Assembly: GCA_046293175.1 (NCBI GenBank)
Contig: JBKBPM010000001.1
Location: 102,891-166,890 of the forward strand
Direction of reading: 5' to 3'
DNA length: 64,000 nt
Source of the DNA: Minisyncoccia bacterium
Lineage (GTDB): Bacteria; Patescibacteriota; Minisyncoccia; Phycocordibacterales; UBA918
Part shown: positions 1,318-47,493 of the stretch, piece after piece
Layout: each line of letters begins with the position of its first letter
How positions within the stretch are numbered: position 1 is the first letter of the stretch
Translations under genes and position numbers: made by a program
Notes under the pieces: model-generated
The model's database searches: none
What the model saw: the letters and a program-made list of their open reading frames with translations, nothing else
What the model was told of the DNA's origin: nothing

Positions 1318-2367
1318 TTAGTCGACAATCGCTACAGCAGTCTCAAACGAGTTGTTGTTACGGTTACTATCTGGAGTAACAGATACTTCGACGTTATAGC
1401 GCTTGGCGCCCGTATCATCTCCCATTGTAAAGCCGAGAGTGATAGTTGCTCGTTCGTTTGGTTTGAGGGCCGCCTGACTTGGTGAAGTATAGGTCTCACC
1501 ATTTGGAAGTTTAGCGGTATAGGTCCAAGTGCTTGAGGTCTTGGTACCAATGTTCTTCACCTCAAACTTGATAGCGCCAGTTTCGTCGTTGTCGATGATT
1601 CCAGTAGCCTTAAAGGTCTCTTGAACGAGGATACCACTACCCACAAAGGCAACCGAGAGATCAGTAAAGCCATTTGGATTTGAGGCTGGGATACTGTAGA
1701 CCGGCTTTTGGGTATACACTGGCTTGGTTGGGATTGCTGGCTGAGTCGGCTTAGCCGGAGTGGCAGGTTTGGCCGGTTCAGCTGGCTTTTCCGTCAGGAC
1801 TGGTGGAGTAGTAGTGGCAGGGGATGAAGTAGCTACCGGTGTACCGGCCGTACCAATCGTAGCGTTAACAATCGTGATTGAGTTATCGTCGGTCATGAGT
1901 GGCGCCTCTTTACCTGAAGGGATAAAGTCGATGCGGTAGTTGAGGTCGGTAAAGCGATTCTTTTCAGAGGTAGCGACAATATCAATGGCACTCACACTTC
2001 CGATATTGTAGTTGGTGTCACAGGAGAGCGACTTGATAGCCCCGAGACTGTCTCGCATATCAACGGCTAGACCTTCACTACACGCGTATGAAAAGGCGAA
2101 GGTACCGGTACGCTTTGGTACATTCCAACTGATAGTGACCGATTCACCATCACTGACCGTTCCCTTGGTACTTGTGGTCTCAAGACCACGGGTATCGTAG
2201 CTATAGACACTGTCGGCGAGGGAAGCGAGCGACGTGAAGGCGCTTGGTAATACCTTCACGAGTTGGATACCTAACCACGCAATTACAATAATCAGGCCAA
2301 TAAAACCCACAATAGCAAGCGACTTAATGATTCCGTCTTTCTGCTGCTGTTCACGATTGTTTGTCAT
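1318..2367 (-). CDS. Hypothetical membrane-anchored (type II) surface protein with a Pro/Thr/Lys-rich linker
   Basis: 349 aa. N-terminal transmembrane helix (IIKSLAIVGFIGLIIVIAWLGIQLV). Central linker TPPVLTEKPAEPAKPATPAKPTQPAIPTKP. No recognisable catalytic motif. Confidence 0.55.
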   Translation of the reverse strand: MTNNREQQQKDGIIKSLAIVGFIGLIIVIAWLGIQLVKVLPSAFTSLASLADSVYSYDTRGLETTSTKGTVSDGESVTISWNVPKRTGTFAFSYACSEGLAVDMRDSLGAIKSLSCDTNYNIGSVSAIDIVATSEKNRFTDLNYRIDFIPSGKEAPLMTDDNSITIVNATIGTAGTPVATSSPATTTPPVLTEKPAEPAKPATPAKPTQPAIPTKPVYTQKPVYSIPASNPNGFTDLSVAFVGSGILVQETFKATGIIDNDETGAIKFEVKNIGTKTSSTWTYTAKLPNGETYTSPSQAALKPNERATITLGFTMGDDTGAKRYNVEVSVTPDSNRNNNSFETAVAIVD

Positions 2368-2456
2368 AATGTGGTCATATTACCATATAATAATGCAAAA
2401 GTCAATAAAACGAAAGTTACAAATTGTCAACCTAAGCACAAATGAAATTCAACATC

Positions 2457-2481
2457 TTCCCTAGGCCTTGCCTAGGGAAGA
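2457..2481. repeat. Palindromic repeat element (CTTCCCTAGG-ccttg-CCTAGGGAAG), one member of a family
   Basis: 10-bp perfect inverted repeat. The same core CCCTAGG/CAAGG/CCTAGGG recurs at 9925-9975 and 27437-27467. Confidence 0.5.
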
Positions 2482-2556
2482 TGCTACACGATGCAAAGGG
2501 GCACCCTAGGCAATAGTCGAAGACCGGTCCCGGGAGAGGATTTCTAACGGGGTTAA

Positions 2557-2590
2557 TTGACAAATTAATATTTTATGATACTATATGACC
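2557..2590 (+). promoter_or_regulatory. Sigma70-like promoter upstream of the sortase gene
   Basis: TTGACAAAT at 2557, about 16-17 nt spacer, extended -10 TGaTACTAT; ATG at 2595. Confidence 0.4.
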
Positions 2591-2594
2591 ATCT

Positions 2595-3248
2595 ATGCAC
2601 GACGAATCTTCATTTTTTGATGCCTTGTGGGTTAAAAAAGTACCATTTTTGGTAGTCTTTTTTGTGATTTTTACTCTCACGTACGGTGTCCTTTTTGCGG
2701 TTGATTTCTTGCCAGAACCAAAAACCAGTGCCCCAGTTAAAGCTGTGGCAACTTCTACTTTTGCCACCACAACCAAAGAAGTAGAGGAGGTGTCTCCGGC
2801 AGCTATGGCCGAAGAGCCGGTGCAGCTCTCGATTCCGTCACTTGATCGGGTAGTGTCTGTCCTTAATCCTGAAACCCGCGATATTGTTGAGCTTGACCGC
2901 GAACTCCTCAAGGGTGTGGTACGTCACCCTGACTCAGCCCTTCTTGGTGAAGAGGGGAATGTGGTTATTTTGGGTCATTCAAGCTACCTGCCAAACGTGA
3001 TGAACAAGAACTTCCAGGCCCTCAATGGTATCCAAAAGATGAAATGGGGCGATATTATCACGCTCCAAAGTGATGGTACCGAATATACCTATCGGGTAGA
3101 AAAGGTCTATCAGGCCAAGGCCTCGGGAGTCACTATCCCAACTGAGGTAACAGGGAAGCGTCTGACGCTCGTGACCTGTAACAGTTTTGGTGCCAAGGAA
3201 GACCGGTTTATCGTTGAAGCGAAGCTCCTCTCTGAAAAAGCCCTCTAA
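2595..3248 (+). CDS. Sortase (transpeptidase, class A/E-like)
   Basis: 217 aa. N-terminal TM anchor. Catalytic His in VVILGHSSY and the TLxTC catalytic Cys motif (RLTLVTCNS). Confidence 0.8.
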   Translation: MHDESSFFDALWVKKVPFLVVFFVIFTLTYGVLFAVDFLPEPKTSAPVKAVATSTFATTTKEVEEVSPAAMAEEPVQLSIPSLDRVVSVLNPETRDIVELDRELLKGVVRHPDSALLGEEGNVVILGHSSYLPNVMNKNFQALNGIQKMKWGDIITLQSDGTEYTYRVEKVYQAKASGVTIPTEVTGKRLTLVTCNSFGAKEDRFIVEAKLLSEKAL

Positions 3249-3280
3249 TCCAGGGCTTTTTGCTGCCTTTTTAATACATT

Positions 3281-3330
3281 TGACAGAATCTCTAATGTAT
3301 TGACAAATACATTAGAGTGTGATAGTATAT
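3281..3330 (+). promoter_or_regulatory. Promoter whose -35 box is embedded in an 11-bp inverted repeat; candidate operator
   Basis: CTCTAATGTAT-TGACAA-ATACATTAGAG is a perfect IR centred on the TTGACA -35. TGtGATAGTAT -10-like follows 17 nt later. A related TTTGACA-N-TTGACAAATAC arrangement repeats at 3661-3714. Confidence 0.35.
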
Positions 3331-3384
3331 ACCCATAACCAGCAACCGCGGATATGATTCCGCAGCATGACAAAGGAGACCTCC

Positions 3385-3606
3385 ATGCAAAAGTTCCTTC
3401 TTCTGGCCGTTTTGGCTACGTCACTCGGCGGCTGTGTCGGTGGTTCCGGTGTTCCGGGCACCGGTGGCGGCGGTGGCTACTCCGGCGGGGAAACCCAGGC
3501 CGAAAGCCAGGCCAAGTCCGGTGAAACCAAACCGGGCGAAACCCAGGGTCCCGAAGGGACCATGGACGACGGCTCGGGGGCAGGCTTCGGACCGATCAGC
3601 GGCTAA
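3385..3606 (+). CDS. Small glycine-rich lipoprotein, in a GC-rich island
   Basis: RBS aggag at 3374-3378, then ATG at 3385. Signal peptide MQKFLLLAVLATSLGGC with lipobox L-G-G-C. Gly-rich body (GTGGGGGYSGGETQ). Local GC is about 65-68% against a backbone of about 47%. Confidence 0.5.
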   Translation: MQKFLLLAVLATSLGGCVGGSGVPGTGGGGGYSGGETQAESQAKSGETKPGETQGPEGTMDDGSGAGFGPISG

Positions 3607-3797
3607 GGCCGCGCAAGGGGTGGGAAGGGGCAAATTTACATGCCCTGACCCACCTTTTTCTATATTTGACATTCTGCTGGTTATGTTGACAAATACCGGC
3701 GGATATGATAAGATACTTGAGTGAACAGAACCTTTGCTCTTTGACGAAATTACTGTCAGAGCGAACCCAACGCGGTGTTACCGCAAGGAGACTCCAA

Positions 3798-4289
3798 ATG
3801 GACCGTCGCAACTTTCTTCTTAGCATGGGTGCTGCCGGTCTGGTGAGCACATTGCCGGACATGGCTGCTGCATGCCCAGCGAAAAAGGCAACCAACTGCG
3901 TCCTCGTGCCGGCGCCGAATCATCGGACTCTCGGAACGCTTGAGCAGGAGCTTGAGCATTGGGCATGGCTCTGCCATCCCGATTATGCCAAACTCAAGCA
4001 ACCTCGCTGGTGGTCGTACGTGATGGTCACCGACAAGAGCTATCCGGCAGCAGTTCAGAGGGTTCTCAACAATCCGAAGGCTCCGCTCCCGGATGAAGTC
4101 GAGGTGCATGGGCAAGAGTGCCGTCAGCAGTGGTTCAAACCGGGCTGGCGCGCTCTCACGGTCACCAACTGTCGTCGTGAAGACCGGCGTTGGACCTTCT
4201 TGCTCTCTCGGCGGTTGACTGCAAAAGATCAAGGTCAGCCGCTCAAGAAAGCGGACTGGCAAGATCTTGAACCGGTCTTCGACATCTGA
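3798..4289 (+). CDS. Secreted cysteine-rich protein with a twin-arginine (Tat)-type signal, in a GC-rich island
   Basis: RBS aaggag at 3785-3790, then ATG at 3798. MDRRNFLLSMGAAGLVSTLPDMAAA is a Tat-like RRxFL signal. 163 aa with 6 Cys. GC about 58%. Confidence 0.5.
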   Translation: MDRRNFLLSMGAAGLVSTLPDMAAACPAKKATNCVLVPAPNHRTLGTLEQELEHWAWLCHPDYAKLKQPRWWSYVMVTDKSYPAAVQRVLNNPKAPLPDEVEVHGQECRQQWFKPGWRALTVTNCRREDRRWTFLLSRRLTAKDQGQPLKKADWQDLEPVFDI

Positions 4290-4393
4290 CAGCTGCCGGG
4301 GCTTCGAAAGTAGTCCCGGCAACAAATCTTTGAATCAACTTGGATTCAGAGTAATCGTCTTTAGAGACGATTGCTTTAATCCGAAGAAATTCG

Positions 4394-6484
4394 GTGTTGG
4401 TAAATAAATTTAAAATTATGTTTAGCATTATAAATATCAAAAATATTTTCATTGCAGGTCTCTTTTTGACCGTGATGTTTTTTGCTACCCTTGCAACTGC
4501 TCCACAAGCTTTCGCGCTCGGAACAAGTGGTTGTGATGGTTGTGGTGGCAGTGGTAGTACTGGTGGCAGTAACGATGGTGGTAATGATACTCCACAGACT
4601 CCTACCTGTTCGCTTGAGCTTAATAAGCTCGAAGTAACCGCTATTGGTGAGACCTACCGACTTACGTGGTCAGGCGGTCCGGCTTCAGCTCAGTTCTACA
4701 TCAATGGTGCTGCAGTAGCCGACTCAGGCGCTGCGAACTTCACCTTTACTGGTCCAAACTATGACCGTTTTAAGATGGTCGGTAACAATGGAGGTGTGAC
4801 CTGTGAAAAGGAAGTGCGTATTATTAAGAAAGTCCAGGAAGTGCCAAAGTGTGAATCGTTTACCGCTTCACCGGCGACTCTTCCAGCTGGCGGTGGCAAT
4901 GTGACCCTTACTTGGGATACCACGAATGCTACCAACGCTTCAATTGATAACGGTGTTGGCACAGTAGCTGGCGACGGTAGTACTGTCATCAACAATGTGA
5001 CCTCAAACCGTACCTTTACCCTCACGCTCTCAAACGCGGTAGGAAGTGCAAGTTGTCAGGCTTCGGTGACGGTTACCCCAGTGGTACACGCTCCAATCTG
5101 TGACTTCATTACCGCTAGTCCAGTAACCATCACTCGTGGCCAGTCAAGTACTCTCTCATGGGGAACTACGAATGCTACTAGTGCCTTCATCAACAATGGT
5201 ATTGGTACGGTTGCAGTTGATGGTTCAACTTCAGTGTCACCACTTGAAACTACTACCTACACCCTCACCGCTACTGGTGCTGAGAACAAGACAGTATCTT
5301 GTTCAAAGACTATCGTGGTTGATCAGCCAGAAGTGAAGACTCCACGTTGTGAATACTTCAACGCATCTGCTACTACCATTAAGCGTGGCGACAATGTAAC
5401 TCTTACATGGGATACAACAAACGCAAATAGTGCAGTCATCAACCCAGGTGTTGGCTCAGTCGCTGCTGATGGTTCAACCACCGTTTCTCCATCTGAAACG
5501 ACTACCTACACCCTCACCATCACTGGTGACAACAACCAGACTTCATCATGTACTCGTACCGTGAATGTCGAAAGTGGTAGTAACGGCGGAGGTGGCGGTG
5601 GATCATCTTCACCAAAGTGTACCCTCAAGATTTCAGACACTAAGATTACTCGTGGCGATCGTATCACCCTGAAGTGGGATACCTCACGCGCTACTGAAGT
5701 AACGCTTAAGGATAGTCACGGCAAGACCCTTGTTACCACTGATGGTAAGAAGTCATCTGATAAGAAGGATCTCTACGACGGTGAAATCACCCTTCGTCCA
5801 GAAAAGGATACTACCTACACCTTGATGGCTGAACGTGGTTCAAAGGATCGAACCTGTAAGGTGTCAGTAGATGTGAAGGATGGTGTAACGGTTATCACTG
5901 ACCGTGATCAGAAGCCGGTCGTAACTGGTATCTCTCTTACACAGGTTCCATACACTGGTTTTGAAGCTGGTCCATTCCTCACGATGCTTTTCTACGGACT
6001 CTTGCTCCTCTGGGCTCTCTACCTCGCGTATGTACTCGTGGTACGCAAGAACGGTGGCGCAGGTGCCCTTGCTATAGCGACACCTACTCCTACTCCGGTA
6101 GCTCCAGTTGCTCCGGTAGCAGTAAGTACTATGAGTACTCCACGATTCGTGGCTCCAGTTGCAGAAGCTGTAGCTGCACCAGTAGTTGGGTACGCAGCAG
6201 CGACCTCTACTACTGATGCCGCCTACGAAGCGATCGCTGAGAAGGTAGAAGATGCAGCACACGCGCAACACGTCCTTATCTCAAGTGAAGCCATGCGTCA
6301 CTTTATCGGTGCCACGAGTGAAGAAACTCGTACCGAGACATTGACCGCAGTCCTCGCTAAGGCTAAGGCATCATATCCGGCGGAAGATGGTTGGGTAGTT
6401 CTCAACATCGACCGTATGAAGAGTGTGATGGCAGCGATGGCACCAGCCGTCTCAGTCTTCACTCCTCGTTCTGTAGCTGCGTAA
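4394..6484 (+). CDS. Large surface protein with five tandem Ig-like repeats of about 90 aa, a sortase-like VPYTGF motif, a TM segment and a 170-aa C-terminal domain
   Basis: Signal peptide. Repeats follow the pattern C-x-F-ASP-TL-GG-VTLTWDTTNAT-I-NGVGTVA-DGST-TTTYTLT...C. VPYTGF (5945-5962) is followed by a hydrophobic stretch and RKNGG, then an Ala/Pro/Val-rich tail. Confidence 0.75.
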   Translation: MLVNKFKIMFSIINIKNIFIAGLFLTVMFFATLATAPQAFALGTSGCDGCGGSGSTGGSNDGGNDTPQTPTCSLELNKLEVTAIGETYRLTWSGGPASAQFYINGAAVADSGAANFTFTGPNYDRFKMVGNNGGVTCEKEVRIIKKVQEVPKCESFTASPATLPAGGGNVTLTWDTTNATNASIDNGVGTVAGDGSTVINNVTSNRTFTLTLSNAVGSASCQASVTVTPVVHAPICDFITASPVTITRGQSSTLSWGTTNATSAFINNGIGTVAVDGSTSVSPLETTTYTLTATGAENKTVSCSKTIVVDQPEVKTPRCEYFNASATTIKRGDNVTLTWDTTNANSAVINPGVGSVAADGSTTVSPSETTTYTLTITGDNNQTSSCTRTVNVESGSNGGGGGGSSSPKCTLKISDTKITRGDRITLKWDTSRATEVTLKDSHGKTLVTTDGKKSSDKKDLYDGEITLRPEKDTTYTLMAERGSKDRTCKVSVDVKDGVTVITDRDQKPVVTGISLTQVPYTGFEAGPFLTMLFYGLLLLWALYLAYVLVVRKNGGAGALAIATPTPTPVAPVAPVAVSTMSTPRFVAPVAEAVAAPVVGYAAATSTTDAAYEAIAEKVEDAAHAQHVLISSEAMRHFIGATSEETRTETLTAVLAKAKASYPAEDGWVVLNIDRMKSVMAAMAPAVSVFTPRSVAA

Positions 6485-6594
6485 GCCTGACTGAAGAAGA
6501 AACATCAAAAACCGCCCGTATGGGCGGTTTTTGTTTTCCTGAAGTCGCTATCAAAAACAGCGTTTCGAAAGATCAGACACGGTATACTAAAGGG

Positions 6595-7803
6595 GTGAAA
6601 ACTTGGCCGGCATTTTTCGTACTCATATTGGTGGGCATTGGCTTTTTGGCAGTGTCCGTACCGGTTTATGCAGCAGTGTCTTGTGACAGCTTTACAGTGA
6701 CTCCAACCAGTGCTTTGCCCGGTGACTTTGTCACCCTTGATTGGACGACTACCGGTGCCACAGATGTCACGATTGATGCCATTGGAGCAGTCGCTACAAC
6801 AGGAAGTACCATTTTTGAGGTACCAAATAGTCCAGGAACGTTTACTTTTTCTATGGAAGTTTCCGGTGGAAGTATCTTTGAGCCAGAAACTGCATTTTGT
6901 TCGACCGATCTCACTATCAACAGTCTACCAGTTTGTGATGTATTTACCGCTACCCCGGACACCCTCACTGAGCCGGGTGAGGTGACGCTGACCTGGGATA
7001 CTGCATCCGCGACTACTTCAGTGACCATTGATAATGGGATAGGTGTCGTAGCGGAAGATGATTCAGTAGTGGTTAGTGTGGCTGGTGACACCACGTATAC
7101 GCTCACTGCCGTTAATGCGTTTGGAAGCACGCAGTGTACCGCATCGGTGACCTTTGCCGCGACAGATGTAGGTAGTCTGAGTAGCGGCGGGGGAGGCAAG
7201 AGTATCAATCCTCGCTGTGACCTTACAATCGATACTGCGAGTGTGATGGCTGGAGACACGGCACTTATTTCGTACGAAGCGGTAAACGCTACCAACCTTA
7301 TGCTGATTGAATCAACCGCTGGTGGATCAAAAACATTATTTAGTACTACTACGTCCCTCGGTGAACAAACGGGAACTTGGCCAGTCACCGTTTTGGCGGA
7401 TACGACATATACGCTCAAAGTTACAAGACCTCATCGCTCAAGTGAATGTACTGCCGTTGTAGCACTGGCAGACCTCAGCGGCCTTGGTTTGGGCGAAATG
7501 CAAGGTGCGTCTTCACTTGCACTCCGGAATCTACCGGATACGGGATTTTATCCAACTACCGGCTTTATAGTGATTATGAATGTGGTTCTCGTAGCGGCAG
7601 CGGCTTTTGTGGCGTATGTGATCGTAGTATTTGGACAGTTGGCACGGCGGGCAAAGACGGTACCGATACGAGATCGTCTATTTACCCCACAGACAGTTCT
7701 GTACCTGACTGAACGCACCACCCTCCAAACCAAATTATTATTGTGGCGCATTATTGCAGTGACTATCATCTTACTTTTGATAATCTGGTACGCATTTCGA
7801 TAG
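6595..7803 (+). CDS. Surface protein with three Ig-like repeats and a C-terminal LPDTG sorting signal; a sortase substrate
   Basis: Likely GTG start at 6595 after aaagggg; an alternative ATG at 6520 lies inside the upstream terminator hairpin. Signal peptide. Repeats are paralogous to the 4394 gene. LPDTGF (7531-7548) is followed by a TM segment and RRAK, then a second hydrophobic segment. Confidence 0.7.
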   Translation: MKTWPAFFVLILVGIGFLAVSVPVYAAVSCDSFTVTPTSALPGDFVTLDWTTTGATDVTIDAIGAVATTGSTIFEVPNSPGTFTFSMEVSGGSIFEPETAFCSTDLTINSLPVCDVFTATPDTLTEPGEVTLTWDTASATTSVTIDNGIGVVAEDDSVVVSVAGDTTYTLTAVNAFGSTQCTASVTFAATDVGSLSSGGGGKSINPRCDLTIDTASVMAGDTALISYEAVNATNLMLIESTAGGSKTLFSTTTSLGEQTGTWPVTVLADTTYTLKVTRPHRSSECTAVVALADLSGLGLGEMQGASSLALRNLPDTGFYPTTGFIVIMNVVLVAAAAFVAYVIVVFGQLARRAKTVPIRDRLFTPQTVLYLTERTTLQTKLLLWRIIAVTIILLLIIWYAFR

Positions 7804-15934: not shown

Positions 15935-16837
15935 ATGGCAAATCGGCACCTTTCACGAAGTATCGTTCTTCAAACCATGTTTGAGTGGGATTTAAATGCA
16001 ATTGACCGCAAAGACGTCATCACTGTTTTAGATAGAAATATAGAAGAATTTGCGCCGAACAAAACTGATCGCCCATTCATGGAAAAGCTCCTTGATGGGG
16101 TTTTGAGTAAGCAACCGGAGCTTGACCTGGTCATAGAAAAAGCCGCTCCTGAGTGGCCAATTGATCGTATCTCTCCTGTCGATCGAAACATCCTTCGCCT
16201 TGGCCTCTTTGAGCTGTTGTTTGCTGATCGTAGTGAAGTACCGGCCAAAGTAGCAATTAATGAAGCGATTGAACTCGCGAAGCAATTTGGCGGAGAAAAC
16301 AGTAGTCGTTTTGTAAATGGTGTTCTCGGTGCGGTGTACAAAGAAATCGGTGAACCTGGCAAAGAAGAAATTGGTAAAAAGAAAAAGCGCGACATTCCAT
16401 TCCACGAAATGCCAGTGGAGCGCCTTGGTGGTGCGGTCGTGTATGCCGAAGACAATGGATCAATGTACCTCGCACTTGTGCATGACATTTTTGGTCACTG
16501 GACGCTCTCGAAGGGCAAAATAGAAGAAGGAGAAGAACTAGAAGCTGGGGCTGTGCGCGCCCTGAAGTCTGAGCTTGGACTTGATGTTACCATCGAAGCA
16601 CCACTGGGGATGAATGAATACGTAGCTAGTCACCCAGAAAAAGGTAAAGTTCGCAAGCAGGTCAACTATTTTCTGGCTTCTTCACCATATACTGAAATCA
16701 CTCTTGAACAAAAAGGTGGGCTTGATGATGGGCGCTGGTTTAAGGTGGCTGATATCCTCGACCTCAATTTTTATGAGGATATTCTGCCGATTGTGACTAA
16801 GGCTGTTACCATGCTTGTCGGTCGCCGAAGCAAATAG
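15935..16837 (+). CDS. nusB: Transcription antitermination factor NusB fused to a C-terminal Nudix-hydrolase-like domain
   Basis: The N-terminal 140 aa are NusB-like (LRLGLFELLF, VAINEAIELAKQFGGENSSRFVNGVLG). The C-terminal 150 aa carry a Nudix-box-like GKIEEGEELEAGAVRALKSELGL (G-x5-E-x7-R-A-L-x-S-E-L-G-L). Confidence 0.75.
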   Translation: MANRHLSRSIVLQTMFEWDLNAIDRKDVITVLDRNIEEFAPNKTDRPFMEKLLDGVLSKQPELDLVIEKAAPEWPIDRISPVDRNILRLGLFELLFADRSEVPAKVAINEAIELAKQFGGENSSRFVNGVLGAVYKEIGEPGKEEIGKKKKRDIPFHEMPVERLGGAVVYAEDNGSMYLALVHDIFGHWTLSKGKIEEGEELEAGAVRALKSELGLDVTIEAPLGMNEYVASHPEKGKVRKQVNYFLASSPYTEITLEQKGGLDDGRWFKVADILDLNFYEDILPIVTKAVTMLVGRRSK

Positions 16838-17030
16838 GACTTGATTTCTAGCCTCATATACTTTGTTGTCTTCGTCCTTCAAGCCTTCAATGTATACCAA
16901 CCATACACCTCAGGCTTTCAGTCCTCGACGCCGCGTCTCTGAGGCCATTAATCAAGCCCTTTGATTTCGAAGGAGAAGCGGCTGCGTTTTCAAATGCTTG
17001 TGAATACGCTATATTAGAAGATACTCATTT

Positions 17031-17747
17031 ATGGAAACACGAAACATAGCGGATGACTTACAGGCGCTGGAGAAAATTCTCGGTGTCACTTTTTCTGATT
17101 CGCTCCTTTTACTTACTGCTATAACTCACCGTTCATATCTCAACGAACACCGAGATGCACAACAGGATCACAACGAACGACTTGAGTTTCTTGGCGATGC
17201 TGTTCTTGAACTGATTGTGACTGATTATCTCTTTCGTACCTATAGCGACAAACCAGAAGGAGAACTCACAGCGATACGAGCAGCGTTGGTGAACACCGTC
17301 TCACTTTCAGCCGCTTCAGAGAAGCTTGGGGTTAATAAGTATCTCCTTATGTCTAAGGGTGAAGCCAAAGACGAAGGACGAGCTCGTCAGTACATCCTCG
17401 CTAATGTGTTTGAGGCATTTATTGGAGCGATATTTCTTGACCAAGGGTACGAGGCCGCGCGTGCTTTTGTTGCTCGTGAGCTTTTTCCAAAAACCGACGA
17501 AATTGTCCGCAAGCGCCTATGGCAGGACCCAAAAAGTCGTTTCCAAGAGCTCGCTCAAGATTACGCGTCAATCACTCCAACCTACAACTTGCTTGGACAA
17601 GAAGGTCCAGATCATGATCGGATGTTTACTATTGGTGTCTATCTTCGTCACGAATTAGTGGCTGAAGGGAAGGGACGTTCAAAACAGGAAGCTGAACAGC
17701 AAGCCGCCTTGCGTGCCATTGCAGTCAAGGGTTGGGATGCTGACTAA
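17031..17747 (+). CDS. rnc: Ribonuclease III
   Basis: ERLEFLGDAVLELIV signature plus a dsRBD at the C-terminus. Confidence 0.9.
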   Translation: METRNIADDLQALEKILGVTFSDSLLLLTAITHRSYLNEHRDAQQDHNERLEFLGDAVLELIVTDYLFRTYSDKPEGELTAIRAALVNTVSLSAASEKLGVNKYLLMSKGEAKDEGRARQYILANVFEAFIGAIFLDQGYEAARAFVARELFPKTDEIVRKRLWQDPKSRFQELAQDYASITPTYNLLGQEGPDHDRMFTIGVYLRHELVAEGKGRSKQEAEQQAALRAIAVKGWDAD

Positions 17748-17804
17748 ATATAGTGTCCACACAAAGATAAAGAGAGCTCTTGGTGCGTGGTACACTAAGA
17801 GTGC

Positions 17805-18476
17805 ATGCAGCGCAAGTACTCTGCCGGTTTTTCACTCATCGAACTAATGGTTACCATTACCATTATTGGTATTTTGGCATCAATTATTTATGCCAATTTT
17901 GGTGGTGGCAATGCTAAAGCCCGTGATGCTAAGCGTCAGTCTGATTTGCGCATCATGCAAACGGCACTTGCTCAGTACAAACAACAGAATGGCCGATATC
18001 CGGCGATGGGGACTGATAGTAATGGTGATGGCTACGCTAGTGAAGGGGAGTCAGCTGCTTTTATTGTTGGGCTAACCCCAACCTACATAAATCGTTTACC
18101 AACCGATCCTCGTCGAGGCAGTAATCCTGGCTATTCATATGCAGTGGATAGTACCGGTAGCGTGTACAAGCTGGTTGCTCTTCGTACCGTTGAAACTGAA
18201 GTAGTGACCCATGAGCACCCATTTAAGAGTTGTGATATACGGGTAGGTAACAGTAGTGGATCTCTCGTCAGTGGTTCGACCGATCGTGAGGTGATTGGTT
18301 GGTGTGGACGTACAGCACAAGCGGGTAATGGTCTTCCAAGTTCATGTAATGCAGCTCAAGCGCCGTTTAATAATACCTACGGTGTTTGGGGAGGCTTTTT
18401 GCCAAAGACATCAGAAACCTGCGCTAACAATCTTACCAACTGTGTGCAAGATACAACTGCTATAATTTGTCTATGA
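17805..18476 (+). CDS. Type IV pilin / pseudopilin-like protein
   Basis: Prepilin N-terminal cleavage/methylation motif G-FSLIELMVTITIIGILASIIYA, followed by a Cys-containing globular domain. Confidence 0.75.
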   Translation: MQRKYSAGFSLIELMVTITIIGILASIIYANFGGGNAKARDAKRQSDLRIMQTALAQYKQQNGRYPAMGTDSNGDGYASEGESAAFIVGLTPTYINRLPTDPRRGSNPGYSYAVDSTGSVYKLVALRTVETEVVTHEHPFKSCDIRVGNSSGSLVSGSTDREVIGWCGRTAQAGNGLPSSCNAAQAPFNNTYGVWGGFLPKTSETCANNLTNCVQDTTAIICL

Positions 18477-18477
18477 T

Positions 18478-19020
18478 ATGAAAACACTTTCTTCACGCTT
18501 TGGCTTCACTTTAGTTGAACTGATGGTGGTCGTATCCGTGATTGGTATTCTTTCGAGTATTATTTATGCCAGTTTTGGTGGAGCAAGAGCAGCTGCTCGA
18601 GATGATGTACGCAAATCTGCTTTGAAGGAAGTACAGCTCGCACTCGAGCGCTATAAGGCTCAGTATGGCGTTTACCCTGCTCAGGGATGTGGCTCGTACC
18701 CAATCTATGCCGGAAGGGGTCCACATCCTGCTTGGGGTTGTTCTGCCGATCAGTACATTACTGGATTAGTACCGGACTTTATTTCCGAATTACCAAAAGA
18801 CCCAAATCAAGAAGATATTGATGGGTACGGCTATCTCTACCTCTCGACTGGAACCGATTATAAGTTAATTGCTCATCTCACTGTTGAGAAAAAACTCATT
18901 CAATCTTACAGGGATGAATTTGCGCGGTGCCCAGCTTCTATTGGTGCGGATCCGTGCGGGCCTGATCATCCTAACCCAAACACGTACGCCGTTTATTCAG
19001 CGGGTGCCGCAGGTTGGTAA
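18478..19020 (+). CDS. Type IV pilin-like protein (paralog A)
   Basis: GFTLVELMVVVSVIGILSSIIYA prepilin motif. About 60% identical to the next gene. Confidence 0.8.
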   Translation: MKTLSSRFGFTLVELMVVVSVIGILSSIIYASFGGARAAARDDVRKSALKEVQLALERYKAQYGVYPAQGCGSYPIYAGRGPHPAWGCSADQYITGLVPDFISELPKDPNQEDIDGYGYLYLSTGTDYKLIAHLTVEKKLIQSYRDEFARCPASIGADPCGPDHPNPNTYAVYSAGAAGW

Positions 19021-19028
19021 TTTAATTA

Positions 19029-19580
19029 ATGTCCCATCGTATGTATCGCTTTTTCAGAAAAACTGGCTTCACACTTGTCGAACTTATGGTAGTGATGTCG
19101 GTAATCGGTATTCTTTCGAGTATTGTCTATGCTAACTATAGCAGCTCTCGCGCCGTCTCGCGAGATGAGGTGCGTAAATCTGCACTCAAATCAATGCAGG
19201 TAGCGATTGAACTCTACAAATCTCAGTACGGCGTATATCCACCTCAAGGTTGTGGGACTTCACCAACTTGGGCTGGACCAGGACCACAACCGGCGTATGG
19301 TTGCACTGCTGACACGTACGTCACTGGTCTCGTACCAGATTTTATTGCTGCCTTGCCTACCGATCCGCTATCAGAAAATACCAACGGACTTGGCTTTTTA
19401 TATCGATCAACTGGTACTGATTACAAGCTTATGGTGCATAACTCAGTTGAAACTAAAACAGTCACTACCTATGAAGATGAGTTCGCCCGCTGTCCGCAGT
19501 CATATGGTACCGCTAATTGTCCCGCCGTACCGATGCCGCGTGTGTATGCTGTTTATTCGCCCGGTGCTGTTGGTTGGTAG
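19029..19580 (+). CDS. Type IV pilin-like protein (paralog B)
   Basis: GFTLVELMVVMSVIGILSSIVYA; a tandem duplicate of 18478-19020 (shared ...YGVYP.QGCG...GLVPDFI..LP.DP...YKL..H...E....Y.DEFARCP). Confidence 0.8.
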   Translation: MSHRMYRFFRKTGFTLVELMVVMSVIGILSSIVYANYSSSRAVSRDEVRKSALKSMQVAIELYKSQYGVYPPQGCGTSPTWAGPGPQPAYGCTADTYVTGLVPDFIAALPTDPLSENTNGLGFLYRSTGTDYKLMVHNSVETKTVTTYEDEFARCPQSYGTANCPAVPMPRVYAVYSPGAVGW

Positions 19581-19583
19581 TAT

Positions 19584-21839
19584 ATGTATCTCAAGGAACT
19601 AACCATCAATGGCTTTAAGTCATTTGCCAAAAAAAGTGAACTCGAATTCTCGGCTCCGATTACTGCTATTGTTGGGCCAAATGGCTCTGGTAAAAGTAAC
19701 GTGGCCGAGTCATTCCGGTTTGTTCTTGGTGAACAATCAGTGAAGTCACTGCGTGGGAAAAAAGGCGAAGATCTTATTTGGGGCGGGAGCGAGGCGGTGT
19801 CCCGAGGGAACCGCGCCTCGGTAGTGGTTGAGCTCGATAACACAAAACGCGTCTTTGCGCTTGATTTTGATACTATAAAAATTGAACGAGTGGTCCATCG
19901 TGATGGGCAAAACGAATATCTTATTAACGATACCCAAGTACGTCTCAAAGATGTTCAAGAGCTTCTTGCGGCAGCTAATATCGGTTCTACCGGTCACCAT
20001 ATTATTTCTCAAGGTGAGGCAGATCGTATTCTCTCTGCTTCAAGTCGCGAGCGTCGGGAGATGATTGAGGATGCACTTGGCTTGAAAGTCTATCAATATA
20101 AAAAGACCGAAGCAGAAAAAAAACTCGAAAAAACCAAAGAAAATATTGCTCAAGTAGAATCACTTCGCCGTGAACTTGCGCCACACCTAAAATATCTCAA
20201 AAAGCAGGTTGAGCGGGTCGAAAAATCATTGGCGGTCCAACAAGAGTTAAAAACGCTGTATGTTACCTACCTCAAACGTGAGGATACCTACCTCGCTTAT
20301 CATGCTGACCGACTTGATCTCGCGCGCCGTGCGCCAGCAAAACTGCTCTCTGAATTACAAGAGAAATTGGTGGCCGCCAAAACATTTTTGCGCAACGTCG
20401 AAGCCGCCAAAGACACGAGTGCTATTATTGAAGCCGAGGAAGCACTCGCCAAGTCGCGTAAGGTGCGAGCTGATTTGCTGCGAACCCTCGGTGCAGTCGA
20501 AGGAGAGGTGACGTACATACAACGCAAAATTGCGGGAGCGAGCCAGCGCGAACAGTCTGTCACAAAACAAGTGATAAGTGTTGAAGCTCTAGAAGAGCTT
20601 GTGGTTTCAGTTGAACAAGAAACCGAAAAGGCGCTCGCACGAGGAGACGAAGCAACACTTCGCCGTGCTCTCCAGGACCTCGTCCATAGTCTTAAGGCTT
20701 TTTTAAAGCGTACTGAGCCAACGACTTTTTCAGACACATCGCAACTTGAAGCAGAACTGCGCGAGACTGAAGCCAAACAAGCGGCACTGGCTCGGGACTA
20801 CGAACAGGCGCTTGCTGTGGAGAAGGGAGCTGAAGCCCATTATAACCACCTCAAACAAGCAATTGAAACCGAGGCGGCCTCGAGTCGTCAGGCCGAGCGA
20901 GCGGTATTTGAGCTCGTAGGTGAGGTGCGTAAGGTTGAGGTAGAGTTAGAGGCGATTGATCGTGAGCGTGAGCAGATCGACCGCGATCGCGAGGAATTCA
21001 AGCGAGAATTGCAAGAAGCAGTGGCGTTGATCAAGGGTGCTGCGGCTCAGTACTTTAATCATGAAATTATAGAAAATGGTGTGGTAGTAAGTCAGGAGGC
21101 GATTGTTGCTGAAGATCGTAACCTTCAGCGTGAGCGACGACGTGAACTTGAGAAGCTCAAGATTCGTCTTGAGGAACTCGGACAGGGTGCAACTGAAGAT
21201 GTACTCGACGAATACAACAAAGCGCTGGAACGCGACCAATTCCTCGAGCGCGAAACGACTGACCTCACGACCTCGGTGGCAAATCTTGAGAATCTTATTC
21301 TTGAGCTCAACAAAGAACTTCATGATCGGTTTGTGGTTGGCATAGACAAAATCACAGTCGAGTTCAACCGTTTCTTTGTGCTTATGTTTGGTGGGGGGAG
21401 CGCAAGCCTCAAGCGCGTGAAGCCAAAGGTAAAGCGTGTCACAGAAGACGGCGAAGAGGTAGAAGAAGACGGTGAAGAAACTGCCGAAGGGGTAGAAATT
21501 GATGTTAATTTACCGAACAAACGAGTCCGCGGACTTGATATGCTCTCAGGCGGCGAGCGAGCGCTCACTTCAATTGCGCTTATTTTCGCGATGAGTCAGA
21601 TTAACCCGCCACTCTTTATCATTCTTGACGAAACCGACGCGGCTCTTGATGAGGCTAATAGTCGTCGCTATGGTGACATGATTACTGCCTTAGCTGAAAA
21701 GTCACAGCTGATTCTCATTACCCACAACCGTGAGACGATGAGTCGTGCCGGGATCCTCTACGGAGTAACGATGGGTAGCGATGGGGTATCAAAACTCCTC
21801 TCGGTGAAGTTTGAGGAGGCGGTGGCGGTGGCAAAATGA
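19584..21839 (+). CDS. smc: SMC-family chromosome condensation ATPase; short at 751 aa, with no obvious hinge domain
   Basis: N-terminal Walker A (GPNGSGKSNV, RGKKGEDLIWGGSE). C-terminal signature/Walker B (LSGGERALTSIALIFAM, FIILDETDAALD). About 430 aa of coiled coil between them. Confidence 0.8.
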   Translation: MYLKELTINGFKSFAKKSELEFSAPITAIVGPNGSGKSNVAESFRFVLGEQSVKSLRGKKGEDLIWGGSEAVSRGNRASVVVELDNTKRVFALDFDTIKIERVVHRDGQNEYLINDTQVRLKDVQELLAAANIGSTGHHIISQGEADRILSASSRERREMIEDALGLKVYQYKKTEAEKKLEKTKENIAQVESLRRELAPHLKYLKKQVERVEKSLAVQQELKTLYVTYLKREDTYLAYHADRLDLARRAPAKLLSELQEKLVAAKTFLRNVEAAKDTSAIIEAEEALAKSRKVRADLLRTLGAVEGEVTYIQRKIAGASQREQSVTKQVISVEALEELVVSVEQETEKALARGDEATLRRALQDLVHSLKAFLKRTEPTTFSDTSQLEAELRETEAKQAALARDYEQALAVEKGAEAHYNHLKQAIETEAASSRQAERAVFELVGEVRKVEVELEAIDREREQIDRDREEFKRELQEAVALIKGAAAQYFNHEIIENGVVVSQEAIVAEDRNLQRERRRELEKLKIRLEELGQGATEDVLDEYNKALERDQFLERETTDLTTSVANLENLILELNKELHDRFVVGIDKITVEFNRFFVLMFGGGSASLKRVKPKVKRVTEDGEEVEEDGEETAEGVEIDVNLPNKRVRGLDMLSGGERALTSIALIFAMSQINPPLFIILDETDAALDEANSRRYGDMITALAEKSQLILITHNRETMSRAGILYGVTMGSDGVSKLLSVKFEEAVAVAK

Positions 21840-46728: not shown

Positions 46729-47493
46729 TTAAGTACCGGCCTCGGCGGTTCCCCCTTCAAGCTGTGTGATCAAACGTTCGATAATTTGTTTTACTACAGG
46801 GTATGGCTGGGCACCATTGATGACGGCCTTTTGGTCACCTACTGTTACAACTGAGTATGGTGTACCCTGTGCGCCAGCTTTCACACCGTCTTCAAGACTT
46901 GCTTCAACGGTGGCAGTATGACGGCCACTTGAAAGACAGGTATTAAAATCAGCACGTGAGACACCGGCCTTTTCAGCAAACTCTGGGAGCTTCGTCATAT
47001 TGGTTGGTTCGTTGACATCACGTTCACTGAAGACTAAGTCTGAGAAGGTCCAGAATGCTCCATCTCCTCCAAGTTCACCAACACAATAGGCAGCTTCAGA
47101 AATACGTGGTGCGTTTGGGTGAAGCTGGGCGAGCGGGAACTGACGGTACACCCAGGCGACTTTACCAGTTACCCCATAATCATCCATGATGAGCTTCATA
47201 GTATCGTGGAAGTTCTTACAAAATGGACAATCGTAGTCAGAATACTCGACAATCGTGATTGGTGCATTTGGGTTACCACGAATAAAGTCCTTTTCAGTTA
47301 CTGGCGAGAGCTCAATCGCTTTTTCAGCCTCTGGTGTTTGCACAACAGTGTTTGGTGTGTTCGTTGTTTTTCCACCACTAAAGTAAATGGCAATAGCAAT
47401 AAATGCGAATCCAACTACAATCGCAAAGGGAATTCCCATATTTGCAGCTGGTCTTGGTGTAGGGGCAAAATTTTGGTTTGTCTCTTCTGGCAT
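46729..47493 (-). CDS. DsbA-family thiol:disulfide oxidoreductase, membrane-anchored
   Basis: Start adjusted to MPEETNQ.... TM anchor, then a thioredoxin fold with the CPFC active site (YSDYDCPFCKNFH). Confidence 0.8.
   Translation of the reverse strand: MPEETNQNFAPTPRPAANMGIPFAIVVGFAFIAIAIYFSGGKTTNTPNTVVQTPEAEKAIELSPVTEKDFIRGNPNAPITIVEYSDYDCPFCKNFHDTMKLIMDDYGVTGKVAWVYRQFPLAQLHPNAPRISEAAYCVGELGGDGAFWTFSDLVFSERDVNEPTNMTKLPEFAEKAGVSRADFNTCLSSGRHTATVEASLEDGVKAGAQGTPYSVVTVGDQKAVINGAQPYPVVKQIIERLITQLEGGTAEAGT

What the first reader, a model, noticed from the sequence alone, without database searches (positions are those of the whole stretch)
17805..19580. Three tandem type IV pilin/pseudopilin genes including a recent paralog pair, wedged between rnc and smc
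All three carry the prepilin G-F-[ST]-L-[IV]-E-L-M-V leader and methylation motif. Genes two and three are clear tandem duplicates with diverged C-terminal halves. Both keep conserved Cys pairs, consistent with a variable exposed D-region. No pilus assembly ATPase or secretin lies adjacent, so the machinery is elsewhere. Tandem pilin diversification is typical of surface-antigen or adhesion variation, and in small-genome episymbionts it relates to DNA uptake and host attachment.
Basis: partly seen in the sequence, partly recalled or inferred. Interest (0 to 1): 0.5.

Follow-up and report, generated by a model that had tools for sequence, protein, structure and literature searches.

The report
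Conserved pilin gene trio in Paceibacteria
Three adjacent genes in this tiny-genome (CPR/Paceibacteria) bacterium encode ordinary type IV pilus subunits; they are an old, conserved pilin module sitting between rnc and smc, with one subunit duplicated long ago rather than recently.

Summary

Parts of the interpretation fail:
- The p2/p3 pair is not recent. It is 62% identical, synonymous sites are saturated, and there is no conversion tract.
- The C-terminal halves are only slightly more diverged (60% vs 67% identity).
- Orthologue comparison shows purifying selection (omega 0.03-0.10), not diversification.

New findings:
- rnc-[long pilin]-[short pilin]-smc is conserved in about 33 Paceibacteria MAGs. 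Two pilins is the ancestral state, and the window's lineage duplicated the short one.
- An extended -10 element sits 6-9 nt before the long pilin's ATG in 30 of 31 loci. This suggests a dedicated, near-leaderless pilin transcript that probably runs on into smc.
- Short-pilin heads diverge far faster than the flanking genes in some close relatives.

No assembly genes lie in the 64 kb. Their presence elsewhere could not be tested and rests on literature. GenBank already annotates the three genes generically. Verdict: ordinary, a new member of a known kind.

The parts
17788..17796 (+). Extended -10 promoter element TGGTACACT, followed by 8 nt and then the p1 ATG. It predicts a leaderless or near-leaderless pilin mRNA.
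   Evidence: TGnTAnnnT ends 3-13 nt (mostly 6-9) upstream of the long-pilin ATG in 30 of 31 related loci. The same signature is found at 13 of 42 gene starts in the window, against about 1.4% expected by chance. Function is inferred, not shown.
17805..18476 (+). p1, the 'long' pilin (223 aa). Leader MQRKYSAG|F, Glu+5, six Cys (143, 167, 181, 206, 213, 222).
18458..18466 (+). Perfect extended -10 (TGCTATAAT) inside the last codons of p1 (T-A-I-I), 11 nt before the p2 ATG. It is a possible internal promoter, but may be a by-product of the coding sequence.
   Evidence: Present in the window, L003, L004, L007 and L008. It is not conserved across the clade: 10 of 37 short-pilin starts have such a motif.
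18478..19020 (+). p2, a 'short' pilin (180 aa). Leader MKTLSSRFG|F, Glu+5, Cys 71, 88, 151, 160.
19029..19580 (+). p3, the second 'short' pilin and a tandem paralogue of p2. It is 183 aa from 19029 and more likely 179 aa from the ATG at 19044 (leader MYRFFRKTG|F).
   Evidence: 62% identical to p2. PF07963 scores 33.5 bits. Identical from Met6 to P0009 = MFN3692566.1. The (W3, L004_3) clade is sister to (W2, L004_2) in the NJ tree.
19584..21839 (+). Short SMC homologue (751 aa) starting 3 nt after the p3 stop. It is probably co-transcribed with the pilins.
   Evidence: SMC_N spans residues 2-736. TIGR02168 matches in two stretches at 524 bits, below the 567 cutoff, and the middle of the model is absent. 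The gap from short pilin to smc is roughly 3-30 nt in all relatives. No properly spaced promoter motif is conserved there: 8 of 33.
17031..17747 (+). rnc (RNase III), the upstream flank. It has its own conserved sigma70-like promoter at 16987-17015.
   Evidence: Pfam hits are. The promoter-like site TTTTCA-17-TATATT is conserved in L004, L007, L008 and L024. A terminator-like hairpin with T-run follows rnc in 14 of 30 relatives, but not in the window.
46729..47493 (-). Membrane-anchored DsbA/MdbA-like thiol:disulfide oxidoreductase with a CPFC active site. It is a candidate for forming the pilin disulfides and is not adjacent to the pilins.
   Evidence: Thioredoxin_4 and DSBA hits. The translation shows a TM segment and CPFC. 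The CPR-enriched MdbA-like family has been proposed to fold pilins (PMC6744442). The link to these particular pilins is inference.

Best explanation
The three genes encode subunits of a type IV pilus of a Paceibacteria (CPR/Patescibacteria) bacterium.

Proposed mechanism. Each precursor is inserted into the membrane by its hydrophobic N-terminal helix. A prepilin peptidase cuts after Gly-1 and methylates Phe+1. A PilB/PilC-type motor, encoded outside this 64-kb window, extracts the mature subunits and polymerises them through their alpha1 helices, with Glu+5 pairing with the neighbouring N-terminus. The envelope has no outer membrane, so no secretin is needed. Extracytoplasmic disulfides, probably made by the DsbA/MdbA-like enzyme in the window, stabilise the globular heads.

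Evolution. The locus is not a recent diversification. It is an ancient two-gene module (long pilin + short pilin) inserted into the rnc-smc pair in the ancestor of a large Paceibacteria clade. The short pilin was duplicated once in the lineage leading to the window and L004.

Expression. The module has its own extended -10 promoter abutting the p1 start codon, giving a near-leaderless mRNA. It is probably transcribed as p1-p2-p3-smc.

My preferred reading is that the short pilins (T4a/GspG-sized, E5-bearing) are filament-forming major subunits, and that the universally co-retained long pilin is an obligatory partner, either a co-major or an accessory subunit. After the duplication, p2 and p3 would co-assemble or alternate, as the tandem PilE1/PilE2 pair does in Streptococcus sanguinis.

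What is shown: gene structure, signal motifs, fold, synteny, age of the duplication, and the conserved promoter motif. What is inferred: processing, assembly, which subunit is major, co-transcription with smc, and the biological role (host attachment, motility, DNA uptake).
For: Pilin identity:
- PF07963 and TIGR02532 score above their cutoffs for all three proteins.
- G-1, F+1 and E+5 are present, and E+5 is invariant in 22/22 and 30/30 homologues.
- The AF2 models have a 50-residue N-terminal helix followed by a beta-sheet head.
- A PDB profile search matches residues 2-76 to PilA-N, PulG, PilA4 and PilE.

Conserved module:
- dnaE/rnhB/nusB-NUDIX/rnc/[long]/[short]/smc/.../rnr is seen in about 33 MAG loci, with rnc 71-96% and smc 54-96% identical.
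- Long and short pilins form two deep clades, each present in every genome.

Age of the duplication:
- p2 vs p3 gives pS 0.81 and dN 0.31.
- The duplication is shared with L004. It is absent from L007 and L008, whose flanking genes are 88-99% identical to the window's, and from L005.

Selection: omega is 0.03-0.10 between the window and L004.

Promoter: the extended -10 motif is found at 30 of 31 long-pilin starts. It is a general operon-start signature in this genome.

Machinery elsewhere is plausible:
- The core T4P set is reported as nearly universal in the phylum, PilQ is absent, and a pilin family and an MdbA-like oxidoreductase are enriched (PMC6744442; PMC13293708; PMC4508563).
- Paceibacteria are reported with pilBCDMT clusters (PMC9763046).
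- In Saccharibacteria TM7x, pilin loci are separate from the machinery loci (PMC12206443).
Against: - No PilB, PilC, PilD, PilM, PilN or PilO was seen in the window or within 10 kb of the module in any relative. I could not inspect the rest of the genome.
- Nothing here shows expression, cleavage, methylation or filament incorporation.
- The major/minor assignment is a guess. The missing terminator between the last pilin and smc is unusual for a highly expressed major pilin gene.
Confidence: 0.78

Rival explanations
1. The trio is an antigenic or adhesive variation locus. Tandem pilin copies would be kept diverse by diversifying selection and by recombination or gene conversion between them. 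This is the first reader's reading, comparable to Neisseria pilE/pilS or to allele shuffling.
For: In close relatives the short-pilin head diverges far faster than its neighbours. For window vs L008, smc dN is 0.034, rnc 0.033 and p1 0.10, while the short pilin is 0.36-0.38. The 5' helix part keeps 73-80% nt identity, whereas the head part drops to 52-58%. The short-pilin tree places L005 nearer to W2/W3 than L007/L008, unlike the p1 tree and the flanks. Copy number changed independently in L015 and L018.
Against: Within the genome there is no conversion tract: the longest identical run is 18 nt, in the conserved helix. All three copies are complete, with their own leaders, and none is a silent cassette. 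Window-vs-L004 orthologues show strong purifying selection in stalk and head (omega 0.03-0.10). The p2/p3 divergence is old and spread evenly along the gene. So any diversification is episodic and acts between lineages. It is not an active switching mechanism.
Confidence: 0.15
2. They are pseudopilins of a type II secretion or competence (Com-type) pseudopilus, not subunits of a surface-exposed pilus. This matches the GenBank product name 'type II secretion system protein'.
Against: GspG scores (43-50 bits) are well below the equivalog cutoff of 88.85, and they come largely from the N-terminal region (to residue 72 in p2, 99 in p3, 115 in p1). PF08334 is below threshold for p1 and absent for p2 and p3. 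ComGC, ComGD, ComGE and ComGF hits are far below their cutoffs. CPR lack an outer membrane and secretin, so a classical T2SS has no place there (PMC6744442). At 170-215 mature residues the proteins are much larger than ComGC. DNA uptake by a true T4P remains possible under the main explanation.
Confidence: 0.07

Closest known systems
Type IVa-like pili of Patescibacteria/CPR (for example Nanosynbacter lyticus TM7x PilA1/PilA2; CPR pilin family fam000005 of Meheust et al. 2019)
   Same: Same superphylum. Class III signal peptide and the lollipop fold. No secretin. Pilin loci can lie apart from the machinery loci, and orphan pilins exist (PMC12206443; PMC6744442). An MdbA-like oxidoreductase is encoded in the genome.
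   Different: The window's proteins come from Paceibacteria, not Saccharibacteria. No sequence-level comparison with TM7x pilins was made. The fixed rnc-pilin-pilin-smc placement and the long/short pairing were not found described in the searched literature (one search returned nothing).
Streptococcus sanguinis PilE1/PilE2 (tandem major pilin paralogues forming a heteropolymeric T4P in a monoderm; PDB 8pfb)
   Different: Co-assembly is not shown here. p2 and p3 are much more diverged (62%) than I recall for PilE1/PilE2 (own knowledge). The S. sanguinis genes lie inside the pil machinery locus, whereas these do not.
GspG/PulG/EpsG major pseudopilins of type II secretion systems
   Different: Below the family cutoffs. 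Longer heads with 4-6 Cys. No T2SS context, no secretin and no outer membrane.
Pseudomonas aeruginosa pilA allele groups in a conserved chromosomal slot (own knowledge)
   Same: A pilin gene in a fixed, conserved genomic frame, whose head domain differs sharply between otherwise closely related genomes while the N-terminal helix stays conserved.
   Different: In P. aeruginosa the slot adjoins pilB/C/D, and alleles come with accessory genes. Here the slot lies between housekeeping genes, and horizontal allele exchange is only weakly suggested.

Membership tests
Type IV pilin superfamily (class III signal peptide; Pfam PF07963 N_methyl, NCBIfam TIGR02532) | Short basic leader ending in Gly-1, then Phe/Met+1 and Glu+5 within a hydrophobic stretch of about 20 residues | tested here: met
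   Leaders are MQRKYSAG|F, MKTLSSRFG|F and MYRFFRKTG|F. E+5 is present in all three and invariant in 22/22 and 30/30 homologues.
Type IV pilin superfamily (class III signal peptide; Pfam PF07963 N_methyl, NCBIfam TIGR02532) | HMM score above the curated cutoff | tested here: met
   PF07963 scores 36.2, 29.3 and 33.5 against 21.2. TIGR02532 scores 32.1, 31.6 and 34.4 against 16.3.
Type IV pilin superfamily (class III signal peptide; Pfam PF07963 N_methyl, NCBIfam TIGR02532) | Lollipop fold: an alpha1 helix of about 50 residues packed on an antiparallel beta-sheet head | tested here: met
Type IV pilin superfamily (class III signal peptide; Pfam PF07963 N_methyl, NCBIfam TIGR02532) | Cleavage and N-methylation by a prepilin peptidase; assembly by a PilB-type ATPase and a PilC platform encoded in the same genome | not testable with these tools
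   None of these genes is in the window. The 676-kb source contig is not retrievable. The literature reports the core set in nearly all members of the phylum.
Type IV pilin superfamily (class III signal peptide; Pfam PF07963 N_methyl, NCBIfam TIGR02532) | C-terminal disulfide-bonded loop (D-region) in the head | tested here: inconclusive
   Cys pairs are present. In the short-pilin family C160 is invariant and C151 is conserved in at least 90% of sequences, 8 residues apart. In the long family C143, C167, C181 and C222 are invariant. Which Cys pair with which, and whether the bonds form, was not determined.
GspG, T2SS major pseudopilin (TIGR01710 / PF08334) | Full-length equivalog HMM score above cutoff | tested here: not met
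   TIGR01710 scores 49.7, 43.3 and 43.6 bits against a cutoff of 88.85, from partial N-terminal matches (to residue 72-115). PF08334 scores 16.8 against 21 for p1 and gives no hit for p2 or p3.
GspG, T2SS major pseudopilin (TIGR01710 / PF08334) | T2SS gene context (GspD secretin, GspE, GspF, minor pseudopilins H-K) | tested here: not met
   Absent from the window and from all 33 related loci. The only locus with a secretin, L036, is an unrelated diderm.
Competence pilins ComGC/D/E/F (NF040999, NF040982, NF041013, NF041002) | Equivalog HMM score above cutoff | tested here: not met
   ComGC scores 17.9, 18.0 and 26.7 bits against 75. The other Com models score 21 bits or less against cutoffs of 49-80.
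Gene-conversion antigenic variation system (Neisseria pilE/pilS type) | One expressed locus plus promoterless or 5'-truncated silent copies, with conversion tracts between copies | tested here: not met
   All three copies are full-length with leaders. The longest identical run between p2 and p3 is 18 nt. pS is 0.81.
Heteropolymeric T4P built from tandem major-pilin paralogues (S. sanguinis PilE1/PilE2 type) | Two or more tandem, complete, similar-sized E5-bearing pilins | tested here: met
   p2 and p3 are adjacent, 180 and 179 aa, and 62% identical. Both have intact signals.
Heteropolymeric T4P built from tandem major-pilin paralogues (S. sanguinis PilE1/PilE2 type) | Co-assembly of the paralogues into one filament | not testable with these tools
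   Needs purified pili with mass spectrometry or cryo-EM.

The most novel reading that the evidence does not exclude
The pilin module and the hinge-less 751-aa SMC homologue form one functional operon. The promoter abuts the long pilin, and the short pilin's stop lies roughly 3-30 nt from the smc ATG in all ~33 genomes, with no conserved intervening promoter or terminator. Under this reading, synthesis of pilus subunits (for DNA uptake or attachment) would be tied to an SMC-like DNA-handling ATPase in this Paceibacteria clade. The long and short pilins would be an obligate heteropolymeric pair, and the short-subunit head would be swapped between lineages.
Probability: 0.07. Interest if true: 0.55.

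Novelty: new member of a known kind. Interest (0 to 1): 0.25.

Why it matters
Type IV pili are regarded as the main tool by which CPR/Patescibacteria attach to hosts, move and take up DNA. Knowing which pilin genes are core is useful for picking targets in the few cultivable systems and for reading metatranscriptomes.

This analysis shows that in one large Paceibacteria clade a long + short pilin pair is as stably placed as the housekeeping genes around it. The pair has a recognisable near-leaderless promoter, and the short subunit's head is the fast-changing part between related species. That gives a simple synteny marker (rnc-pilin-pilin-smc) for finding likely structural pilins in these genomes.

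Otherwise the finding is ordinary. The genes are already annotated, and their class is well known in this phylum.

Tried and rejected
Reaching the rest of the genome to look for PilB, PilC and PilD:
- Look-ups of window proteins returned only short Logan contigs of the same organism, not the 676-kb NCBI contig.
- L036, the only fetched locus with a T2SSE ATPase, is a diderm T2SS with a secretin, so it is useless as a bridge.
- Two remote pilin hits on 665-kb and 861-kb contigs (L041, L042) do sit next to T2SSE, T2SSF and peptidase A24 genes. They are not recognisably Paceibacteria, so I did not use them as queries.

Gene conversion between p2 and p3: none found.

Separate conserved promoter for the short pilins or for smc: rejected, with motifs at 10 of 37 and 8 of 33 starts against 30 of 31 for the long pilin. 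The window's perfect TGCTATAAT inside p1 may just reflect the conserved T-A-I-I codons.

Rfam: no match at gathering threshold over the whole window, and none at E <= 1 over 14.8-17.9 kb apart from a chance snoRNA hit.

Literature: a search for the rnc-pilin-smc arrangement returned nothing. A search for leaderless transcription in Patescibacteria found nothing relevant.

I used window-vs-L004 orthologues instead.
Full report
**1. What is at 17805-19580**

- p1 at 17805-18476, 223 aa
- p2 at 18478-19020, 180 aa
- p3 at 19029-19580, 183 aa

RNase III lies upstream at 17031-17747 (Ribonuclease_3 + dsrm). An SMC homologue lies downstream at 19584-21839 (SMC_N). The genes are tightly packed. There are 57 nt from rnc to p1, 1 nt from p1 to p2, 8 nt from p2 to p3 and 3 nt from p3 to smc.

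All three proteins begin with a short basic leader, then G|F-[ST]-L-[IV]-E-L-M-V and a hydrophobic stretch. All three pass Pfam N_methyl (36.2, 29.3 and 33.5 bits against a cutoff of 21.2) and NCBIfam TIGR02532. A six-frame motif scan finds no other such leader in the 64 kb.

p3 is identical from its sixth codon to database protein P0009 = MFN3692566.1 (179 aa). The family norm is a leader of about 9 residues. The real start is therefore probably 19044.

**2. Source and existing annotation**

Exact-sequence look-up places p1, p2 and p3 on a 676,114-bp NCBI contig of a 'Candidatus Paceibacteria bacterium' MAG. They are MFN3692564-66, named 'type II secretion system protein'. Those homologues that carry a source name are Parcubacteria/Paceibacteria, that is CPR/Patescibacteria.

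The ORFs scanned elsewhere in the window are mostly housekeeping: gyrB, a sortase, thrS, dnaE, rnhB, a nusB-NUDIX fusion, dnaG, rpoD, addA-like, hisS and glycan enzymes. By position and synteny with relatives, the unscanned ORFs at 23.5-35 kb are RNase R, ribosomal genes and rpoB/rpoC. No T2SSE, T2SSF, peptidase A24, PilM/N/O or secretin was found, and a PilB/PilT Walker-A motif scan was negative.

**3. Are they pilins?**

Beyond the N-terminal HMMs, AlphaFold2 with family alignments gives the classic lollipop:
- p2 has pLDDT 79.5, helix 12-63 and a five-strand head.
- p1 has pLDDT 71, about 90 for residues 40-135, with a poorly modelled 140-190 segment.

A profile search of PDB sequences matches only the N-terminal ~70 residues, to PilA-N, PulG, PilA4 and PilE.

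Membership of narrower families fails:
- GspG (TIGR01710) scores 43-50 bits against 88.85.
- PF08334 is below threshold or absent.
- ComGC/D/E/F models are far below their cutoffs.

The genes therefore belong to the type IV pilin superfamily. They cannot be filed as GspG or Com pilins, and the GenBank name is generic.

**4. The paralogue pair is old, not recent**

- p2 and p3 are 62% identical over their full length.
- Nucleotide identity is 62%. The proportion of synonymous differences is 0.81, which is saturated, and dN is 0.31.
- The longest identical nucleotide run is 18 nt, within the conserved helix.
- Identity is 67% in the N-half and 60% in the C-half, or 70% in the stalk and 62% in the head. 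The C-terminal halves are only slightly more diverged.
- The four Cys of the two proteins align. Across 22 family members C160 is invariant, C71 and C151 are conserved in at least 90%, and C88 is variable.
- p1 is 45% identical to p2. Its family has four invariant Cys (143, 167, 181, 222) and a conserved C-terminal TTAIIC motif.

**5. The locus is a conserved module**

Context look-ups and a scan of GTDB species genomes gave about 33 Paceibacteria-type loci. In all of them the gene order is dnaE(-), rnhB, (rpmF), nusB-NUDIX, rnc, [long pilin of 185-270 aa], [short pilin of 155-192 aa], smc..., rnr(-). rnc is 71-96% identical to the window's and smc is 54-96%.

In an NJ tree the long and short pilins form two deep clades, each represented in every genome. 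Two pilins is the ancestral state. Three pilins occur in:
- the window and its identical Logan contig L001;
- L004, whose copies pair one-to-one with p2 and p3;
- L015 and L018, independently.

L007 and L008 have flanking genes 88-99% identical to the window's, yet each carries a single short pilin. So does L005, a more distant relative (rnc and nusB 88% identical to the window's). The duplication therefore arose on the branch leading to the window and L004. These two genomes already differ by a flanking-gene dS of about 0.85 or more, close to saturation.

The rnc-smc adjacency is itself a classic operon in Bacillus subtilis (my own knowledge). The pilin module looks like an ancient insertion into that pair.

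**6. Selection and divergence**

Window-vs-L004 orthologues give omega of 0.03-0.10 for p1, p2 and p3, in both stalk and head. This is purifying selection.

Rates are very uneven between lineages, however:
- Against L004, pilin dN is 1.7-3 times that of smc.
- Against L008, which has the same flank dN of 0.033-0.034, p1 dN is 0.10 and the short pilin's is 0.36-0.38.

A sliding nucleotide comparison shows the short pilin's 5' helix part at flank-like identity (73-80%) and the head part at 52-58%. The short-pilin tree is also mildly incongruent with the p1 tree and the flanks: L005 is nearer to W2/W3 than L007 and L008 are.

Three explanations fit: old allelic lineages, head-cassette replacement, or a burst of change after the duplication. 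I cannot tell them apart. It acts between lineages, not as a switching system inside this genome.

**7. Expression signals**

Upstream of the long pilin, an extended -10 motif (TGnTAnnnT) ends 3-13 nt, mostly 6-9 nt, before the ATG in 30 of 31 loci. In the window it is TGGTACACT at 17788-17796, followed by 8 nt and then the ATG at 17805. This predicts a leaderless or near-leaderless mRNA.

The same signature marks 13 of 42 gene starts in the window, against about 1.4% expected by chance. It is therefore this organism's usual operon-start architecture, and p1 heads a transcription unit.

- A terminator-like hairpin with a T-run separates rnc from the long pilin in 14 of 30 relatives, but not in the window or L004.
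- No such promoter is conserved before the short pilins (10 of 37) or before smc (8 of 33).
- The short-pilin-to-smc gap is only roughly 3-30 nt everywhere.

The likely unit is p1-p2-p3-smc. The window also has a perfect TGCTATAAT at 18458-18466, inside p1's last codons and 11 nt before p2. It may be an internal promoter or a by-product of the coding sequence.

All of this is motif-based inference. No transcript data were available.

**8. Mechanism proposed**

The steps are the standard type IV pilin pathway:
- Membrane insertion through alpha1N.
- Cleavage after Gly-1 and N-methylation of Phe+1 by a PilD-type peptidase.
- Extraction and polymerisation by PilB/PilC machinery.
- No secretin, because CPR lack an outer membrane and PilQ (PMC6744442).

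Head disulfides are plausibly made by the membrane-anchored, CPFC-bearing DsbA/MdbA-like protein at 46729-47493(-). Its family is CPR-enriched and has been proposed to fold pilins.

The machinery is not in the window, and I could not inspect the rest of the genome. The inference that it exists rests on literature:
- The core T4P set is 'nearly universal' in the phylum (PMC13293708).
- T4P and ComEC/ComF/DprA belong to the Parcubacteria core (PMC4508563).
- Paceibacteria are reported with pilBCDMT clusters (PMC9763046).
- TM7x keeps pilin loci apart from its machinery loci and has orphan pilins (PMC12206443).

**9. Verdict**

The pair is not recent, is not markedly C-terminally diverged, and shows no intragenomic recombination.

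The genes are already annotated, and their class is well known in CPR, so this is a new member of a known kind. The modest added value is the conserved rnc-pilin-pilin-smc module, its near-leaderless promoter, and the lineage-specific jumps in short-pilin head divergence.

Noticed in passing
window 19584-21839 (+): The 'smc' gene is only 751 aa, against about 1,180 aa for the canonical model. It matches TIGR02168 in two stretches (head N and head C) at 524 bits, just under the 567 cutoff, and shows no hinge-domain hit. All relatives have 751-757 aa versions, so a short, apparently hinge-less SMC is fixed in this clade.
   Followed up: partly
window 16838-17030 (nusB-rnc spacer): This 193-nt spacer is 93-96% identical to L008 and 75-89% identical to L007, while the flanking coding DNA is only about 80% identical. 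It contains a conserved sigma70-like promoter (TTTTCA-17-TATATT, 16987-17015) and further conserved blocks upstream. There is no Rfam match. Distant relatives have a spacer of only 30-50 nt here.
   Followed up: partly
window 14964 to about 15570 (rnhB to rpmF): About 600 nt with no convincing ORF and no Rfam hit. The relatives checked (e.g. L002, L004) also have a gap of several hundred nt to ~1 kb between rnhB and rpmF/nusB. This may be an unrecognised RNA gene or a divergent small gene.
   Followed up: no
window-wide; e.g. 2595, 14286, 17805, 26711, 40658, 43660, 53162, 55017 (+) and 2367, 13778, 49146, 62926 (-): An extended -10 motif (TGnTAnnnT) ends 6-12 nt upstream of the start codon at 13 of 42 gene starts, against about 1.4% expected by chance. 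No Shine-Dalgarno sequence is evident. This suggests widespread leaderless or very short-leader transcription in this Paceibacterium.
   Followed up: partly
window 15935-16837 (+): NusB is fused to a NUDIX hydrolase domain in a single 300-aa protein. The fusion is conserved at 75-99% identity in all related loci.
   Followed up: no
window 46729-47493 (-): A membrane-anchored DsbA/thioredoxin-like protein with a CPFC motif. The best NCBIfam hit is a Rcas_1661-family thioredoxin-like lipoprotein, below cutoff. It fits the CPR-enriched MdbA-like oxidoreductase proposed to fold pilins.
   Followed up: partly
window 1318-7803: A sortase (2595-3248) is flanked by a 349-aa ORF with a weak NEW3-like hit (1318-2367, minus strand) and by three ORFs of 194, 696 and 470 aa with no Pfam hits (3705-7803). 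These are probably sortase-anchored surface proteins, a second class of surface structure near the pilin locus.
   Followed up: no
L017:5775-9270 (Parcubacteria OLB19): In this relative about 3.5 kb is inserted between rnc and the long pilin, so the otherwise fixed rnc-pilin junction can accept extra DNA. The content of the insert was not examined.
   Followed up: no
L015 and L018: There are independent three-pilin versions of the module. L018 has the order short-long-short, with its two short copies sister to each other. In L015 the two short copies fall in different subclades of the short-pilin tree. Copy-number change of the short pilin is therefore recurrent.
   Followed up: partly
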